From the IMG/VR virus record IMGVR_UViG_3300014539_000123: 18,127 nucleotides of DNA; one strand, 5' to 3'. This DNA is from a virus. Taxonomy: Duplodnaviria > Heunggongvirae > Uroviricota > Caudoviricetes. The translations under genes were made by a program, and so were the position numbers. The notes under the pieces are model-generated. The model did not search any database. It had not been told where the DNA came from and saw only the letters and a program-made list of their open reading frames with translations. Each line of letters begins with the position of its first letter. Positions within the stretch are counted from its first letter, which is position 1. Positions 641 to 13,378 of this stretch are shown piece after piece.

Positions 641-847
641 CTTCATTTTCACTTTTTCAAATCCAACGACAGACGGCTGGCATTTAAGTATTGTGAAATA
701 TTATCAAATGTAATCATCATTGATTTACAAAAGATACATTTTGCCCCGAAAGGATTCATGTCAGAAACATCAAAAGATGATGTTCTATACTGGGAACCAT
801 GACAACACGGGCATCTAAAGTGAATATGGTTTGTAATATTGTCTACC

Positions 848-1060
848 TCAAAGCGCCACTACATGAACAGCGGCAGGACCTTTAGGTCCGTTCTCAATAC
901 CAAATTCAACTTCCTGATTCTCAGTTAATGTTTTGAAATCGTTGCTCTGAATTGCTGAGAAATGGACAAACACATCTTTGCTGCCATCTTTCGGCGTGAT
1001 GAAACCAAAACCTTTTTCAGGGTTAAACCATTTCACTAAACCAGTCATTTTGTTAGACAT
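848..1060 (-). CDS. cspI: cold shock protein CspI (CspA family, 70 aa)
   Basis: [38 protein letters not shown]... carries the RNP1/RNP2 motifs of the CspA family. Upstream aaaggtaataatt-ATG resembles the cspA translation-initiation region. A roughly 360-nt upstream gap is consistent with a long csp 5' UTR. Confidence 0.9.
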
Positions 1061-1422
1061 AATTATTACCTTTTGAAGAAATTAGCCCTTGGGCAGAATG
1101 GTCCGAAAAAAAATATCAGAGAGAAAAACCAACAAGGAAATCTCAAGAGGTACAAATAATAAAATTATAACAATGACTGCTTCAGATAAATTTGTAACAA
1201 ACCAGAACACCATTAACGCATGATTAACCACCCATAGCAAGGATTACTTTTGTAAAGAAAAACACAGCAATGAAAGAATAGCTTTATTTATTAATAAAAC
1301 GTGTCATTCTGATTAAGACCTTTTATCTTACCCTTAAGATTTCAGGAATTTTGGCTCATGGAAGAGTCCTTTTTATTTAAATTTTACATTCCGCGATGTA
1401 AATGTTCCGATTTAATATTACC

Positions 1423-3450: not shown

Positions 3451-3731
3451 GAGATTGTGGTGCTTTTTGTGGGAGTCATCCACTTACGCACTTTGTTTTG
3501 CCATGCCAGCAGTTAGCTTCTGCTGTAAAACTATTCATGCAGCAAACCTGCACTTCACCACAATGGTTAGCATACTTTTCCTGATTAAGATTTTGCCAAA
3601 TATGCTAGCCATTGTTTCATGTATTGGACCTCCTTACTTTTTATTAAAGAGATCCAATATTCACTACTCTGTCCGTATCTCTACTCAGGCATCAGCCTTC
3701 TTCGTTATCGTATACAGACGAGCGATGAATT

Positions 3732-3947
3732 TTAATCAGTAATGATGACATTTGCTGCTGCAGGACCTTTAGCACCACTCTCTATAGAGAAGGTAACCTT
3801 TTGACCTTCAAATAAGGTTCGATAATTATCATTCTGAATCGCAGAAAAATGCACAAACACATCTTTACTACCATCAACAGGAGAAATAAAGCCGAAACCT
3901 TTATCAGCGTTAAACCATTTTACTAAACCAGTCATTTTATTTGACAT
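3732..3947 (-). CDS. cspB: cold shock protein CspB (CspA family, 71 aa)
   Basis: [45 protein letters not shown]... is a CspA-family sequence matching CspB as recalled. SD aagga upstream. Confidence 0.9.
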
Positions 3948-4247
3948 TCTACATTCCTTAACTTGAGCCTTTCGGCATAAATGGTTTGCATAACAGAAAC
4001 GACTTCGTACTTAATTGGAGAGACTCAAAGAAGGAATAAGTGAATAACACCTGAAATGAGAACTGCTTTAGTAAACTACTTCGTATATCGTCTGTTCTTC
4101 AAACCGACGCAATCATTAACGCATAGTTGAACATATGAAGCAATGTTTATTTTAGACATCCAGCCATCTTCAACCCCATCAAAAAACTATAGCTTTCTTC
4201 AGGAACGTGTGTATAGTGCGCCAAGTTATCAGTATTAAGGAATTTTT

Positions 4248-9539: not shown

Positions 9540-9789
9540 TTAAGAATCTACCCTATGAATGGATATGCACTCAACCGAATCGATCTTGGTTTCAATCTTT
9601 TTTATCGGGATCAGGCTTCTTTTTAGGTAACTTCGGGGGCTTAACTTGCTGATGACTTTGCGTTCGGCGCGTAAGCCAGGGATGGTCAGCTTTAGGTTTA
9701 ACATAGTATTTTGAGCGTAAATCAATACGGGCATTATCCACTCGTTCATGGACACTCTTTTCATCATCCAGTGGTAAGGTCCGGATCAA
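9540..9789 (-). pseudogene. possible degraded gene remnant (two overlapping ORFs in different frames; integrase-fragment assignment is positional only)
   Basis: ORFs 9540..9767 and 9592..9789 overlap in different frames with no SD and no recognisable motifs. K-12 annotates an integrase pseudogene here (ydfW/intK), but I cannot see integrase motifs myself. Confidence 0.2.
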
Positions 9790-10060
9790 CCACAGCAGGT
9801 TTCTTCACCTTTGCCCTCGAGAGTTTTTTGCGGGCGTTTTGCCAGTCCTTACGCGCCTGTTCAGAGGGGAATAACCCGTAGCCGGAGTTGTATACATCGC
9901 CACTGGCTACCAGCTCTCTGGCAAGAACGCTCATCAGATATCTAGTCGCACCTGTTTTAGCTTCCAGTTGCCGTAACGTCTCACGGCCGCTCTGGCGCAC
10001 GAGTTCCACCACCTGCCATTTAATTTTTTCCCGCTCTTCTTGTGTAAAAACTTTTGCCAC
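9764..10060 (-). CDS. hypothetical protein, 98 aa (possible ydfX equivalent), GTG start
   Basis: GTG at 10058-10060 preceded by strong SD agggggac. Basic C-terminus. Immediately downstream of the replication initiator gene, the position of the helicase loader in lambda, but far too short for one. Confidence 0.5.
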   Translation of the reverse strand: MAKVFTQEEREKIKWQVVELVRQSGRETLRQLEAKTGATRYLMSVLARELVASGDVYNSGYGLFPSEQARKDWQNARKKLSRAKVKKPAVVDPDLTTG

Positions 10061-10100: not shown

Positions 10101-11066
10101 TTATCCTCTGAAACCAGGCGGAATTTCTGTATCCGGTTCAGAAATATGATTAACACAACGCTGTACAGGTGAACGTCCCAGGCGGATGACCAGTTCGTCC
10201 CATTTTTCGCGGAGCTTTGACGGGCTCATGATGTTTTTTACCCAGAATGGATCTCGCTGAACCCGACCAAACATTTCGCAAATTTGTCTGTGGCTTCTGC
10301 CATCCAGCATCCGCATTGTGCGCACGTCATTGGCCCAGGCAGTCCAGTTAGGCTCTTTTGGTCGCATGATCTCGCCATCATCACTGGCTGCCTGTTCGTA
10401 GAGACCCACGATCCGCCCCCAGATCCACTGCGCACACGCCAAATCCTCCCTGCTACCCCACTGGCGTTTTTTCGCACTAAACACAACCGCGTCGGAGTTC
10501 CGGGTTAAAAAATCCTGTTCAGTCGTCTGCGGGTCCGGTTGCGAAGCTTCCGGACGAAAAGTGTTTTTATTCTCTGTAGTAATCTCTGTTGTATTCTCTG
10601 TAAGATCATCAGGCCATTTTGACCCGATGACATTGGGTCGTTTTGAACCAATGGAGCGTTTCATTTTGACCTCTTCCATCGTGTCATTTTGACCTGATGG
10701 AGCGGCGCATTTTGAACCGATGGATTCGCTCAATTTGCCACCATCTAAAAGCTCGCTCCCATAGTTGATCGTGTAGAAATTGGTCATATCGCGCTTTGAT
10801 TTATTGAGCTTTTCACAACGCAAAAGCCCCAGCGTTTTCAGACTTGCAAACGCGCGCTTTAACGTTGACTCTGACCAGAATGGGAACTGTTCCAGCCATT
10901 GTTCCGTTGTGTTATAAATCCAGCGAACACCATCACATTCCATGCCGGAGTTGGTATCTCTCAACCAGTAGTGCAGTTGTTGCAAAACAATGGCTTCGTT
11001 TAAGCCAATTTTCATTGCCAGCTGCGTGTTTATAACCAGTGGGCGTTCAGCAAAAAGAAGGCTCAT
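10101..11066 (-). CDS. phage replication initiation protein, lambda O-like organisation (321 aa from ATG 11066; ORF extends to TTG 11120)
   Basis: The coding sequence contains five iterons in its central linker, which translate into the repeated peptide SIGSK; lambda O also carries its ori inside the gene. Start codon ambiguous; 5' end is near the assembly gap. Confidence 0.55.
   Translation of the reverse strand: MSLLFAERPLVINTQLAMKIGLNEAIVLQQLHYWLRDTNSGMECDGVRWIYNTTEQWLEQFPFWSESTLKRAFASLKTLGLLRCEKLNKSKRDMTNFYTINYGSELLDGGKLSESIGSKCAAPSGQNDTMEEVKMKRSIGSKRPNVIGSKWPDDLTENTTEITTENKNTFRPEASQPDPQTTEQDFLTRNSDAVVFSAKKRQWGSREDLACAQWIWGRIVGLYEQAASDDGEIMRPKEPNWTAWANDVRTMRMLDGRSHRQICEMFGRVQRDPFWVKNIMSPSKLREKWDELVIRLGRSPVQRCVNHISEPDTEIPPGFRG
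10560..10725. repeat. ori-like iteron array: five about 16-bp repeats (consensus cATTTTGAmCnnATGG, period 22-25 bp) flanked by an AT-rich tract with TCTCTGT repeats
   Basis: Iterons at 10615-10629, 10640-10654, 10662-10677, 10685-10700 and 10708-10723. AT-rich region 10560-10612 contains three copies of tctctgt. All lie inside the O-like gene. Confidence 0.6.
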
Positions 11067-11268
11067 AATTCCATCCAGCTTTTTGTTGGTATTGCTGTCG
11101 ATACGCAAGTTTGAAAGCAATTGCTTTTTCTATAAGTTCGTCAGTTTCACGATCCACTACGGCAGGATCAGCAAAAAGCAGTCCGGACTCCACCACATCG
11201 CCATATTCTTTGTTTAACCCGGCGATCATGCACGTGATGCTTTTTCCGTCAGTAATTTCACGATACAA
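11047..11268 (-). CDS. ORF of 73 aa abutting the assembly gap; possibly the C-terminal part of a longer protein
   Basis: Begins with TTG right at the gap edge with no in-frame stop before the N-run, so the true N-terminus may lie in unsequenced DNA. Overlaps the 5' end of the O-like ORF. Confidence 0.25.
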   Translation of the reverse strand: MYREITDGKSITCMIAGLNKEYGDVVESGLLFADPAVVDRETDELIEKAIAFKLAYRQQYQQKAGWNYEPSFC

Positions 11269-11278
11269 CCTGAAATCA

Positions 11279-11575
11279 TTAATCNNNNNNNNNNATAGCC
11301 TCCATAATTGCAGGCACTAGCGCCGTGAACTTTTCACGCTTATCCCTGGTGTCGATAGCCTTCCAGCGTTCAAATATCTTCACTCGATTAACGCCAAGCG
11401 CTCGCTGATCAATCGCGCCACCTTCATATGTGACACGCTGAACATCGATGTTCGGGCGCTCTTTCAAAGCCCAGAATGCTTCAGTGATTAATATCGTCGC
11501 CTGCTCCTGTGTCATTCCTGGTCGACATATCCAGGCATCCAGAGCCTCACGAGCCTGTTCAGGAGTGATTTTCAT
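11279..11575 (-). CDS. hypothetical protein in the cII position downstream of dicC (98 aa as read; C-terminus crosses the gap and is unreliable)
   Basis: ATG at 11573-11575 overlaps the dicC 3' end by 17 nt. The last codons include the N-run, so the real stop is unknown. Confidence 0.4.
   Translation of the reverse strand: MKITPEQAREALDAWICRPGMTQEQATILITEAFWALKERPNIDVQRVTYEGGAIDQRALGVNRVKIFERWKAIDTRDKREKFTALVPAIMEAXXXXD
11285..11294. other. assembly gap (run of 10 N)
   Basis: Ten consecutive n characters; true length unknown. Interrupts the coding region between dicC and the replication gene. Confidence 0.99.
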
Positions 11576-13320: not shown

Positions 13321-13378
13321 TTTCTGGTGACGTTTGGCGGTATCAGTTTTACTCCGTGACTGCTCTGCCGCCCTTTTT
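13321..13378 (+). ncRNA. dicF: DicF small RNA (Hfq-dependent sRNA, known to target ftsZ and other mRNAs)
   Basis: tttctggtgacgtttggcggtatcagttttactccgtgactgctctgccgccctttttaa matches the DicF sequence as I recall it, ending in a GC-rich segment plus U-tract. 5' end is generated by processing, so boundaries are approximate. Confidence 0.75.

What the first reader, a model, noticed from the sequence alone, without database searches (positions are those of the whole stretch)
10560..10725. Candidate replication origin inside the O-like initiator gene: five iterons plus AT-rich tract
Five repeats of consensus cATTTTGAmCnnATGG are spaced 22-25 bp apart, about two helical turns, followed in the gene's reading direction by an AT-rich stretch with three TCTCTGT repeats. 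This mirrors the lambda ori, which lies within O as iterons followed by an AT-rich unwinding element. The iterons translate into a repeated SIGSK peptide in the protein linker. No helicase-loader gene of normal size follows, so the module may be a remnant whose ori could still be bound or fired in trans.
Basis: seen in the sequence. Interest (0 to 1): 0.5.

Follow-up and report, generated by a model that had tools for sequence, protein, structure and literature searches.

The report
Lambda-type origin inside initiator gene
A prophage replication-initiator gene carries its own lambda-style replication origin (six protein-binding repeats next to an easily melted 12-base repeat), which is ordinary in kind, but that 12-base repeat is conserved almost letter for letter in phage origins across many bacterial phyla.

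Summary
The repeats are real and non-random. There are five good copies and one degenerate copy of a 23-bp unit (core GGTCAAAATG on the gene's sense strand). Three 12-mers (ACAGAGAnTACn) and a short palindrome follow, all inside codons 108-178 of a 321-aa O-like gene (10101-11066, minus strand) of a Qin/mEp460-type lambdoid prophage.

Comparative data place the constraint on the DNA, not the peptide. The cores fall in all three reading frames. Synonymous sites are frozen. The iteron sequence changes with the initiator's N-terminal domain while position and spacing stay fixed. A natural allele has an exact iteron-to-iteron deletion of 93 bp.

The protein is a hybrid. Its winged-helix N-domain is not lambda O's family. 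Its C-domain is 34% identical to lambda O's. Its last 20 residues are 70% identical to the C-terminal tail of host DnaT.

The "remnant" idea is not supported. Phages deposited as complete genomes (mEp460_ev081, HannyBb, PhiR42_1) carry the same loader-less module.

One result was unexpected. The 12-mer repeat sits just 3' of unrelated iteron arrays in hundreds of phage and prophage initiator genes from many phyla, with synonymous positions fixed. I found no description of this in the literature I could search.

Verdict: a lambda-type origin, very probably functional, and a new variant of a known kind.

The parts
10101..11066 (-). O-like replication initiator gene (321 aa, ATG at 11066, stop at 10101-10103). 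Its start overlaps the end of the upstream YdaT/cII-like gene by 20 nt.
   Evidence: ORF and translation. PHROG 391 'replication initiation O-like', E 1e-91. 100% identical to the gene annotated 'DNA replication protein O' in phage PhiR42_1. RefSeq names it 'hypothetical protein'.
10746..11066 (-). Coding region of the N-terminal winged-helix domain (codons 1-107), the presumed iteron-binding domain.
   Evidence: AlphaFold2 gives helices 14-20, 22-38, 54-60 and 66-78 and strands 47-51, 82-87 and 95-100. No match to PF04492 or TIGR01610. 12,343 relatives at E<=0.001 for the full-length query in the representative library, and most of the listed hits align only to this domain.
10607..10742 (-). 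Iteron array of six 23-bp units. + strand cores lie at 10615-10624, 10639-10648, 10662-10671, 10685-10694 and 10708-10717, with a degenerate sixth at 10731-10742. Sense-strand consensus: nnTccAtcaGGTCAAAaTGancc.
   Evidence: Consensus from 24 distinct relatives, with cores falling in all three reading frames. 0 of 16 third-codon positions in the cores vary among 43 alleles.
10566..10601 (-). Three tandem 12-mers (ACAGAGAnTACn on the sense strand), the candidate DNA unwinding element.
   Evidence: No variable site among 43 alleles. Unpaired in both single-strand folds. Same motif next to unrelated iterons in many phages.
10533..10555 (.). Short palindrome GTCCGG-N11-CCGGAC, with GAAGCTTC inside. 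It occupies the position of the right-arm palindrome of lambda ori.
   Evidence: Read directly from the sequence. It forms a hairpin in both single-strand folds. Compare lambda, 933W and phi80 TTCGTC(A/C)GAGAATTCTG(G/A)CGAATCC. Relatives carry GTCCGGTTGCG-N-CGCAACCAGAC. The functional role is inferred.
10176..10520 (-). Coding region of the helical C-terminal domain (codons 183-297), homologous to the lambda O C-terminal domain.
   Evidence: BLASTP against lambda O: 34% identity, residues 147-294 against 135-270, E 1e-26. tblastn hits to lambda, 933W and phi80 O genes. Helical in the AlphaFold2 model.
10104..10163 (-). C-terminal tail (codons 302-321, QRCVNHISEPDTEIPPGFRG) matching the last 20 residues of E. 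coli DnaT.
   Evidence: 14 of 20 identical to DnaT residues 160-179. PDB chains 2ru8, 6aep and 9zbt_D. NCBIfam DnaT model positions 160-179 only.
9764..10060 (-). Truncated DUF977 (LygF / 'Ren-like') gene in the position that ren holds in lambda. It is not a helicase loader.
   Evidence: Pfam DUF977, profile positions 1-82 of 134. Homology to PhiR42_1 breaks at 9775-9784, where that phage has about 3.3 kb more, including an IS.

Best explanation
This is the vegetative replication origin of a Qin/mEp460-type lambdoid prophage. It is embedded in the linker-coding part of the gene for its own initiator and is built on the lambda plan.

Proposed sequence of events; every step is inferred by analogy with lambda O and oriLambda, and none was tested here:
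1. The initiator's N-terminal winged-helix domain binds the six 23-bp-spaced iterons (core GGTCAAAATG, each with an A-tract) and assembles an O-some-like complex.
2. The stress of that complex opens the adjacent 36-bp tract of three ACAGAGAnTACn repeats, the least stable DNA in the gene. The letter-level conservation of the tract suggests it is also read sequence-specifically, probably as single-stranded DNA, and does not serve only as AT-rich filler.
3. The lambda-O-like C-terminal domain and the DnaT-like C-terminal tail bring in the host replicative helicase. With no P, DnaC or helicase gene in the module, this most likely happens by engaging host DnaB-DnaC directly.
4. The origin is transcribed from the pR-like early promoter through dicC(cro), ydaT(cII-like) and the O-like gene, so transcription can activate it as in lambda.

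Shown here: the anatomy, the DNA-level constraint, the covariation of iterons with the N-domain, the domain homologies, and the presence of the same module in complete phage genomes.
For: 1. Regular array far beyond chance.

2. Position. The array and the 12-mers fall in residues 108-175, which AlphaFold2 models as disordered (pLDDT about 25). This stretch lies between a winged-helix domain (residues 11-100) and a helical domain (183-297). In the BLASTP alignment to lambda O, the 12-mer-encoded peptide lines up with the peptide encoded by lambda's AT-rich tract, and the annotated lambda iterons lie just upstream of that in O.

3. The constraint is on the DNA.
- The six cores lie in reading frames 2, 1, 0, 2, 1, 1, yet match GGTCAAAATG at 8.4-9.9 of 10 positions across 24 distinct relatives.
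- Among 43 near-identical alleles, third-codon positions vary at 3 of 60 sites in the origin against 60 of 262 elsewhere (Fisher p=0.00095). In cores plus 12-mers the count is 0 of 28 (p=0.002).

4. Iterons covary with the N-domain.
- Relatives at 72% identity or more keep GGTCAAA(A/G)TG.
- At 55-62% identity some have GAGGGCAAATTGCCCT or GGACAAATTGTCCC instead, at the same place and spacing.
- Bacillus phage BMBtp2 (39% identical N-domain) has GTCAAAATG five times at exactly 23-bp spacing.

5. The scan used here recovers the annotated lambda iterons as a positive control.

6. A natural 290-aa allele (P0018 and others) is an exact 93-bp deletion joining one iteron to another.

7. The 12-mer tract is the least stable 36 bp in the gene and stays unpaired in single-strand folds.

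8. The gene is intact and identical to that of phage PhiR42_1. The same loader-less module is in HannyBb and mEp460_ev081. mEp460 completes both life cycles (PMC9836094).

9. The tail type tracks the partner in the few cases seen. A relative with a different tail (...DGWEDVL) is followed by a lambda-P gene. Relatives with the IPxGFRG tail are followed by a DnaC-like gene or by no loader.
Against: - There is no experimental evidence for binding, melting or firing of this sequence.
- The first unit of the array is degenerate in this window.
- The low-stability tract is short (36 bp) and only moderately AT-rich (GC 0.30, 96.6th percentile of the window).
- How the helicase is recruited is unknown. 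The function of DnaT's own tail is not established in the papers I read: DnaB/DnaC recruitment is called 'unknown' in PMC13377028 and PMC4132743.
- The association between tail type and absence of a loader is weak (1 of 12 against 36 of 114) and was detected with an insensitive BLAST screen.
- The surrounding prophage shows decay: the DUF977 gene is truncated by a deletion. The element as a whole may therefore not be inducible even if the origin is intact.
- The AlphaFold2 model has low overall confidence (mean pLDDT 56.8).
Confidence: 0.8

Rival explanations
1. The origin and initiator are an inactive remnant. This is the first reader's suggestion: the loader gene has been lost, so the origin can at best be bound or fired in trans.
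For: No P, DnaC or helicase gene follows. The next gene (DUF977) is truncated by a roughly 3.3-kb deletion relative to PhiR42_1. Qin-type prophages are often cryptic, and alleles with deleted iterons exist. One close relative (P0025, same tail) does have a DnaC-like gene right after the initiator, so a loader could have been lost.
Against: The same O-like-then-DUF977 arrangement without a loader occurs in three phages deposited as complete genomes, one with confirmed lytic and lysogenic cycles. The gene is intact. Synonymous sites in the origin are under stronger constraint than the rest of the gene. Loader-less relatives are widespread in Citrobacter, Salmonella and E. coli.
Confidence: 0.1
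2. The repeats are only a coding feature. A low-complexity, repeat-expanded peptide linker (SIGSK..., TENTTEITTEN) would be under protein-level selection or none, with no function at the DNA level.
For: The region encodes a disordered linker. Three units do translate to SIGSK. The 12-mers are read in the same frame (T-E-x-T) in 95% of viral hits.
Against: - Cores are conserved in all three frames.
- Third-codon positions are frozen.
- Extra T-E-x-T units defined at the peptide level use ACA in 25 of 26 cases and GAG in 25 of 26, against backgrounds of 25% and 43% in the same ORFs (p=2e-14 and 1e-8).
- The freest position of the 12-mer is a second codon position.
- BMBtp2 carries CAGAGAnTAC in another frame at 10-11 bp spacing.
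Confidence: 0.04
3. The repeats bind the initiator, but mainly for another purpose: autoregulation, titration or handcuffing, exclusion of related phages, or a conserved recombination joint for swapping N- and C-terminal modules. The true origin would lie elsewhere.
For: Iterons in plasmids also serve copy control. The 12-mer and palindrome lie exactly at the boundary where relatives switch C-domains (Kp4885-3, PEp14), so they could act as a shared joint for mosaic exchange.
Against: The order of iterons, low-stability tract and palindrome matches that of the annotated origins of lambda, 933W, phi80 and P22. No other iteron cluster exists in the 18-kb window. Nucleotide identity of the 12-mer across phyla is hard to maintain by recombination alone.
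Confidence: 0.06

Closest known systems
Phage lambda O protein and oriLambda (also 933W, phi80, P22 gene 18)
   Same: - The origin lies inside the initiator gene, at the junction between the N- and C-domains.
- Direct repeats lie about 20-24 bp apart and have an A-tract centre (lambda CCCTCAAAACGAGGG, P22 CGGTAAAAC, here GGTCAAAATG).
- They are followed, in the reading direction, by a purine-strand-biased, low-stability tract and a small palindrome (TTCGTC.G.GAA...).
- The C-terminal domain is 34% identical to lambda O.
- 933W also has six iterons.
   Different: [quoted passage not shown]
- The iteron sequence differs.
- The unwinding tract is a regular 12-mer repeat, ACAGAGAnTACn, instead of lambda's ACAAAAGAC...-type A-rich tract.
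- The C-terminal tail is DnaT-like.
- No P gene (or P22-type helicase gene) follows.
E. coli DnaT (primosomal protein i)
   Same: The last 20 residues are 70% identical ([20 protein letters not shown] against QRCVNHISEPDTEIPPGFRG). dnaT lies directly upstream of dnaC, just as a relative of this initiator lies directly upstream of a DnaC-like gene.
   Different: Only the tail matches (16 bits against the 201-bit cut-off of the DnaT model). DnaT has no winged-helix iteron-binding domain and acts at forks with PriA and PriB, not at an origin (PMC13377028).
DopC/DopE, domesticated lambda O/P-like genes (Brezellec et al. 2017, PMC5509034)
   Same: DopC is an O-related protein that also carries a DnaT C-terminal motif. 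The combination of an O-like protein with DnaT_C has therefore been seen before.
   Different: DopC was reported to lack iterons and to be a chromosomal, domesticated gene. Here the iterons and the whole origin are present, in a phage.
Replisome organisers and DnaD-like initiators of Gram-positive phages (SPP1 G38P, TP901-1 Rep) with origins inside their genes
   Same: The architecture is the same: N-terminal DNA-binding domain, repeats inside the gene, variable C-domain. The N-domain of this protein is 39-46% identical to initiators of Bacillus and Staphylococcus phages. BMBtp2 shares the iteron core, the spacing and the CAGAGAnTAC motif.
   Different: There is no Pfam match to Phage_rep_org_N or DnaD_N for this protein. 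TP901-1 rep lacks the 12-mer motif. That the SPP1 origin lies inside gene 38 rests on my own knowledge, not on a tool result.
Iteron plasmids (RK2, F, pSC101) and DnaA-trio elements of oriC
   Same: Initiator-bound repeats lie next to an unwinding element made of short repeats. In those systems the initiator reads the unwinding element sequence-specifically as single-stranded DNA (from my own knowledge and from reviews PMC4980987 and PMC5043065, listed but not read in detail).
   Different: The initiator families are unrelated. Here the element lies within a coding region and is conserved across phyla. Binding of the 12-mers as single strands is a hypothesis only.

Membership tests
Lambda-type intragenic iteron origin | Four or more direct repeats of an initiator-sized site at about two helical turns, inside the initiator's own gene | tested here: met
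   Five good units and one degenerate unit at 23-24 bp spacing within 10607-10742 of the O-like gene.
Lambda-type intragenic iteron origin | An adjacent low-stability (AT-rich) tract on the 3' side of the iterons in the gene's reading direction | tested here: met
   10566-10601: GC 0.30 and the least stable 36 bp of the gene. Lambda, 933W and P22 have an A-rich tract on the same side of their iterons.
Lambda-type intragenic iteron origin | Located in the linker between the DNA-binding N-domain and the C-domain of the initiator | tested here: met
   In the AlphaFold2 model, residues 108-175 have pLDDT about 25 and lie between folded domains. The alignment to lambda O residues 135-270 begins inside this linker.
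Lambda-type intragenic iteron origin | Iteron sequence covaries with the initiator's DNA-binding domain among relatives | tested here: met
   GGTCAAAATG type at 72% N-domain identity or more. GAGGGCAAATTGCCCT and GGACAAATTGTCCC types occur at 55-62% identity. Position and spacing are kept.
Lambda-type intragenic iteron origin | The initiator binds the repeats, and the segment supports initiator-dependent replication | not testable with these tools
   This needs EMSA or footprinting and an ori-plasmid assay.
Lambda O protein family (Pfam PF04492 Phage_rep_O; NCBIfam TIGR01610) | The N-terminal domain matches the family model | tested here: not met
   No hit at E<=0.1 in Pfam or at E<=0.01 in NCBIfam. 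Lambda O itself scores 5.7e-36 and 5.4e-39 as a control.
Lambda O protein family (Pfam PF04492 Phage_rep_O; NCBIfam TIGR01610) | The C-terminal (P-interacting) domain is homologous to lambda O's | tested here: met
   34% identity over 148 residues, E 1e-26. tblastn E 2e-16 to lambda and 933W.
Lambda O protein family (Pfam PF04492 Phage_rep_O; NCBIfam TIGR01610) | A partner P gene lies immediately downstream | tested here: not met
   The next gene is DUF977. A lambda-P gene follows only in a relative with a different tail.
PHROG 391 'replication initiation O-like' | Full-length match to the family profile | tested here: met
   E 1.1e-91, residues 17-321 against profile positions 11-298 of 298.
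DnaT (NCBIfam NF002770) | Full-length equivalog match | tested here: not met
   16.2 bits against a cut-off of 201. Only profile positions 160-179 align. BLASTP aligns only the last 20 residues.
Initiators whose origins carry (ACAGAGAnTACn)n 3' of their iterons (a grouping defined here) | Two or more in-phase 12-mers directly 3' of three or more iterons, inside an ORF whose N-domain belongs to this winged-helix superfamily | tested here: met
   The window has three 12-mers directly after six units. 155 of 164 such ORFs are reached by an iterative profile seeded with the window's N-domain.

The most novel reading that the evidence does not exclude
The (ACAGAGAnTACn)2-5 repeat may be a previously undescribed, sequence-specific origin-opening element. 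It is shared by a very large superfamily of phage initiators across bacterial phyla, whatever their iteron specificity or C-terminal domain. It would be read by a conserved surface of the winged-helix N-domain, or by a universal host replication protein. The closest analogy is the DnaA-trio or the Rep-bound 13-mers of plasmids. In this prophage it would work together with a DnaT-mimicking tail that lets the initiator capture host DnaB-DnaC without a phage-encoded loader.
Probability: 0.3. Interest if true: 0.8.

Novelty: new variant of a known kind. Interest (0 to 1): 0.55.

Why it matters
**Annotation.** The gene is named 'hypothetical protein' in RefSeq and has no Pfam family. Yet the full-length protein has more than 12,000 relatives at 50% clustering (most matching through the N-domain), and the gene marks the replication origin of a common class of enterobacterial prophages. 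The rule 'winged-helix domain, then iterons, then ACAGAGAnTACn' would allow origins to be called directly from sequence in many phages and prophages.

**Biology.**
- A 12-bp DNA motif whose synonymous positions are fixed from Proteobacteria to Firmicutes, Chloroflexi, Cyanobacteria and CPR bacteria implies a conserved reader. The motif lies next to iterons that vary freely.
- Loader-less modules with a DnaT-like tail offer a direct way to ask what DnaT's own tail binds, and how DnaB-DnaC is recruited. The recent preprimosome structure paper states that this remains unknown.

Tried and rejected
- **Pfam and NCBIfam on the initiator.** Nothing beyond the DnaT tail, so the family had to be defined from PHROGs and homology searches.
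- **PDB sequence search.** Only the tail matched. I did not run a fold search because the model confidence was low.
- **The search for related loci with the family alignment.** It returned only relatives at 98-100% identity. These were useless for covariation but were used later for the polymorphism test.
- **BLAST of a pure 12-mer repeat against the phage collection.** No match, presumably because the query was masked as low complexity.
- **Full-text searches for the motif string.** Only primer noise came back. Concept searches for phage iteron origins, unwinding elements and replisome organisers found no description of the motif. Searches for PhiR42 and HannyBb found nothing relevant. Subscription literature, for example Weigel & Seitz 2006, could not be searched.
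- **Rfam.** No RNA family in or near the origin.
- **Promoter and terminator scan.** Nothing above chance in the origin. Only a pR-like site upstream of dicC.
- **Tail type against downstream loader.** The trend is not significant.
- **Known host-factor sites.** By eye, the 12-mer does not resemble a DnaA box (4 of 9 positions) or an IHF consensus. This was not tested with a tool. Its complement contains CTG, the E. coli primase start triplet, but primase triplets differ between phyla, so I did not adopt that reading.
- **Other origins.** TP901-1 rep and the classical origins of lambda, phi80, 933W and P22 lack the exact 12-mer. Lambda and P22 have a looser ACAAAAGAC... repeat at the same place.
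Full report
**What the window is.** The 18-kb window is the early region of a Qin-type lambdoid prophage of E. coli.
- From about 4037 to the end it is 99.3-99.8% identical to phage PhiR42_1, apart from one deletion.
- The stretch from the repressor to the initiator is 97-98% identical to phages HannyBb and mEp460_ev081.
- Gene order on the minus strand is: pR-like promoter, dicC (cro), a YdaT/cII-like gene, the gene of interest (10101-11066, 321 aa), then a DUF977 gene.
- RefSeq calls the 321-aa product 'hypothetical protein'. Phage depositors call it 'DNA replication protein O', 'replication initiation O-like' or 'Primosomal protein I'.

**Checking the observation.** CATTTTGAMC matches at 10615, 10639, 10662, 10685 and 10708, and the remaining matches in the window are at chance density.
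- The repeat finder and TRF both report a 23-bp period, and also a 12-bp period of 2.7 copies at 10571-10602.
- No other spot in the window has four or more copies of any 10-mer within 220 bp.
- Relatives show that the array has six units. The sixth is degenerate here (CAATTTGCCACC at 10731-10742).
- On the gene's sense strand the 23-bp consensus is nnTccAtcaGGTCAAAaTGancc.
- Then come three 12-mers, ACAGAGAATACA / ACAGAGATTACT / ACAGAGAATAAA (10566-10601). This tract has GC 0.30 and is the least stable 36 bp of the gene, about 2.8 sd from the gene mean.
- A small palindrome, GTCCGG-N11-CCGGAC, follows at 10533-10555. It is read and forms a hairpin.

**The protein.** AlphaFold2 on a shallow alignment gives a low-confidence model overall, but the domain pattern is clear:
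- a winged-helix domain at residues 11-100;
- a segment with pLDDT about 25 at residues 108-175;
- a helical domain at residues 183-297;
- a floppy tail.

The disordered segment is exactly what the iterons and 12-mers encode. Residues 147-294 are 34% identical to lambda O residues 135-270 (E 1e-26). The N-domain matches neither PF04492 nor TIGR01610, although lambda O does match both. Instead it belongs to a very large uncurated family. The full-length query finds 12,343 representatives at E<=0.001, and most of the listed hits align only to the N-domain. The family includes initiators of Klebsiella, Erwinia, Pseudomonas, Staphylococcus and Bacillus phages. The last 20 residues are 70% identical to the C-terminus of host DnaT, which explains the 'Primosomal protein I' annotations.

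1. Because 23 is not a multiple of 3, the six cores are read in frames 2, 1, 0, 2, 1, 1. They give SIGSK, SGQND and EEVKM. Even so, the cores match GGTCAAAATG at 8.4-9.9 of 10 positions over 24 distinct relatives.
2. Among 43 distinct alleles at 98-100% identity, third-codon positions vary at 29 of 107 sites in the N-domain and 31 of 155 in the C-terminal part. The counts are 0 of 16 in the cores, 0 of 12 in the 12-mers and 3 of 32 in the spacers. Origin against rest gives Fisher p=0.00095.
3. The iteron sequence changes with the N-domain, while place and spacing are kept. Erwinia phage PEp14 (54% identical N-domain) has GAAGAGGGCAAAWTGCCCT at 23, 25 and 47 bp. Relatives at 55-62% identity split between GGTCAAAATG-type and GGGCAAATTGCCC- or GGACAAATTGTCC-type iterons. 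Bacillus phage BMBtp2 (39% identical) keeps GTCAAAATG five times at exactly 23 bp. The same scan recovers the annotated lambda iterons.
4. A set of 290-aa alleles (P0016-P0021) differ by an exact 93-bp deletion that joins one iteron to another in frame. This is the product expected of recombination between functional direct repeats in a decaying prophage. From my own knowledge, it is reminiscent of the lambda ori- 'r' deletions.

**The helicase-loader question.** Nothing resembling P, DnaC or a helicase lies between the initiator and Q in the window, HannyBb or mEp460_ev081. The genes there are DUF977, a methyltransferase, QueH, hok/mok, rem, DUF968 and RusA. mEp460 is one of 26 phages whose lytic and lysogenic cycles were confirmed (PMC9836094). 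The loader-less module is therefore a working design, not a remnant.

Relatives show that the family is modular:
- P0036 has a different tail (...DGWEDVL, resembling lambda O's ...DWIYGVDL) and is followed by a Phage_lambda_P gene.
- P0025 has the same IPPGFRG tail and is followed by an IstB/DnaC-like gene.
- P0048 and P0038 have IPxGFRG tails and no loader.

This suggests that the extreme tail is the element that selects the partner, and that the DnaT-like tail addresses DnaC-type loaders, whether phage or host. A wider but insensitive screen gave only a non-significant trend. The role of DnaT's own tail is not established in the papers I could read. A DnaT C-terminal motif on an O-related protein has been noted before, in DopC (PMC5509034). 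In the window itself the DUF977 gene is cut short by a deletion of about 3.3 kb relative to PhiR42_1, so this copy of the prophage is decaying downstream of an intact initiator and origin.

**The 12-mer repeat.** This was the unexpected result. Kp4885-3 has a different C-domain and PEp14 has different iterons, yet both keep CTTACAGAGAnTACAACAGAGAnTACTACAGAGA almost letter for letter.
- By my arithmetic, 17 fixed bases in 596 Gb on two strands should give about 70 chance hits in the genome set. Consistent with that, only 67 of 115 analysed genome hits have the origin context. The others include proteins with R-D-Y-N-type repeats.
- In the viral set, 102 of 117 hits have three or more copies of some 9-mer in the 170 bp upstream, against 10 of 114 in a downstream control (p=2e-36).
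- The upstream iterons are unrelated from one contig to the next.
- The motif is in the frame ACA-GAG-AnT-ACn in 111 of 117 viral hits.
- The real genome hits come from Proteobacteria (gamma, alpha and delta classes), Bacillota, Chloroflexota, Cyanobacteria, Gracilibacteria, Fibrobacterota and Spirochaetota.

Three results place this constraint on the DNA as well.
- Extra T-E-x-T units defined only at the peptide level use ACA in 25 of 26 cases and GAG in 25 of 26. The same ORFs use these codons at 25% and 43% elsewhere (p=2e-14 and 1e-8). The genome set gives the same answer.
- In the un-ascertained third unit of 146 distinct loci, the consensus is again ACAGAGAnTACn at 65-83% per position. 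The freest position is a second codon position.
- BMBtp2 carries CAGAGAnTAC three times at 10-11 bp spacing in another reading frame.

An iterative profile seeded with the window's N-domain reaches 155 of 164 motif-bearing ORFs, while only 27 of 201 share the lambda-O-like C-domain. The motif therefore travels with one N-domain superfamily and is indifferent to the C-domain. It is not universal in that superfamily. Among relatives found through the protein, five of those inspected lack it (Vibrio 1.247.B, QH16, SSP002, BF766P1, H6/1).

Lambda, 933W, phi80 and P22 have, at the same position, a looser purine-rich repeat (ACAAAAGAC..., P22 ACAAAAGACAATAn twice), followed in lambda, 933W and phi80 by TTCGTC.GAGAATTCTG.CGAATCC. 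Several motif-bearing phages have that same right arm. The 12-mers thus occupy the place of lambda's AT-rich tract, which from my own knowledge is the region that O unwinds. I found no description of the motif in the searchable literature, but subscription journals were out of reach.

**Mechanism.** The N-domain binds six phased, A-tract-containing iterons and builds a wrapped complex. The adjacent 12-mer tract melts. It is the weakest duplex in the gene and is unstructured as a single strand. Its letter-level conservation argues that it is also recognised, most simply as single-stranded DNA by a conserved surface of the N-domain oligomer. The C-domain and tail then recruit the helicase. Every step is an inference from anatomy and from homology with lambda.

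**Verdict.** The origin interpretation is supported by every comparative test available, and the 'remnant' rider is not. In kind this is a lambda-type origin. It departs from lambda in four ways: the DNA-binding domain belongs to another family, the unwinding element is a conserved 12-mer repeat, the tail mimics DnaT, and no loader gene is present. I therefore rate it a new variant of a known kind. The origin as such is of moderate interest. The 12-mer element has higher potential interest if it proves to be undescribed and functional.

Noticed in passing
window 10566-10601; loci L092-L331: The 12-mer repeat ACAGAGAnTACn lies directly 3' of unrelated iteron arrays in at least 100 IMG/VR contigs and about 67 prophages of many bacterial phyla. 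Its synonymous positions are fixed. Not found in the literature searched.
   Followed up: yes
window 10104-10163 (minus strand): The last 20 residues of the initiator are 70% identical to the extreme C-terminus of host DnaT. The same tail ends other, unrelated phage initiator families: PHROGs 18526, 3729 and 1701 match only residues 297-321, and phage Evi's 'Primosomal protein I' matches only residues 302-321.
   Followed up: partly
window 9764-9784: The DUF977 (LygF) gene is cut at about residue 96. Homology to PhiR42_1 jumps here across about 3.3 kb that in the phage holds an IS, a methyltransferase gene and the rest of DUF977. Other E. coli strains have an ISEsa1 remnant at this spot.
   Followed up: partly
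window 11285-11294: A run of ten N interrupts the YdaT/cII-like gene just upstream of the initiator. It splits the gene into two listed ORFs (11047-11268 and 11279-11575).
   Followed up: no
window 11047-11066: The initiator's start overlaps the end of the YdaT/cII-like gene by 20 nt. Some gene callers fuse the two into a 448-aa product (P0001, P0002, P0004).
   Followed up: no
window 13322-13373 (+); 3716-4108 and 821-1206 (-): Rfam finds the DicF antisense RNA and two cspA-type thermoregulator leaders, as expected for a Qin-type prophage.
   Followed up: no
L334 (Bacillus phage BMBtp2), gene nt 329-480: A Bacillus thuringiensis phage shares the E. coli prophage's iteron core (GTCAAAATG), the exact 23-bp spacing and the CAGAGAnTAC motif, with only 39% protein identity in the N-domain. 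Initiator and iteron specificity are therefore conserved across the Gram divide.
   Followed up: partly
L087 (phage vB_EcoS-569R4), gene nt about 317-400: A relative with the same C-domain (44% identical) but an HTH_36-type N-domain has five CGTCAAAATC repeats at 15-bp spacing and no ACAGAGA 12-mers. This is a different origin design joined to the same C-terminal module.
   Followed up: no
L237 (Gracilibacteria MAG): The motif and three long direct repeats are present, but no frame is open under genetic code 11. This may be because these bacteria read UGA as a sense codon, which was not checked.
   Followed up: no
L341 4101-5450 (mEp460_ev081): A 449-aa hypothetical gene on the opposite strand lies between DUF977 and hok/mok in mEp460_ev081. 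The window has nothing at the corresponding place. It may be a moron or a defence gene.
   Followed up: no
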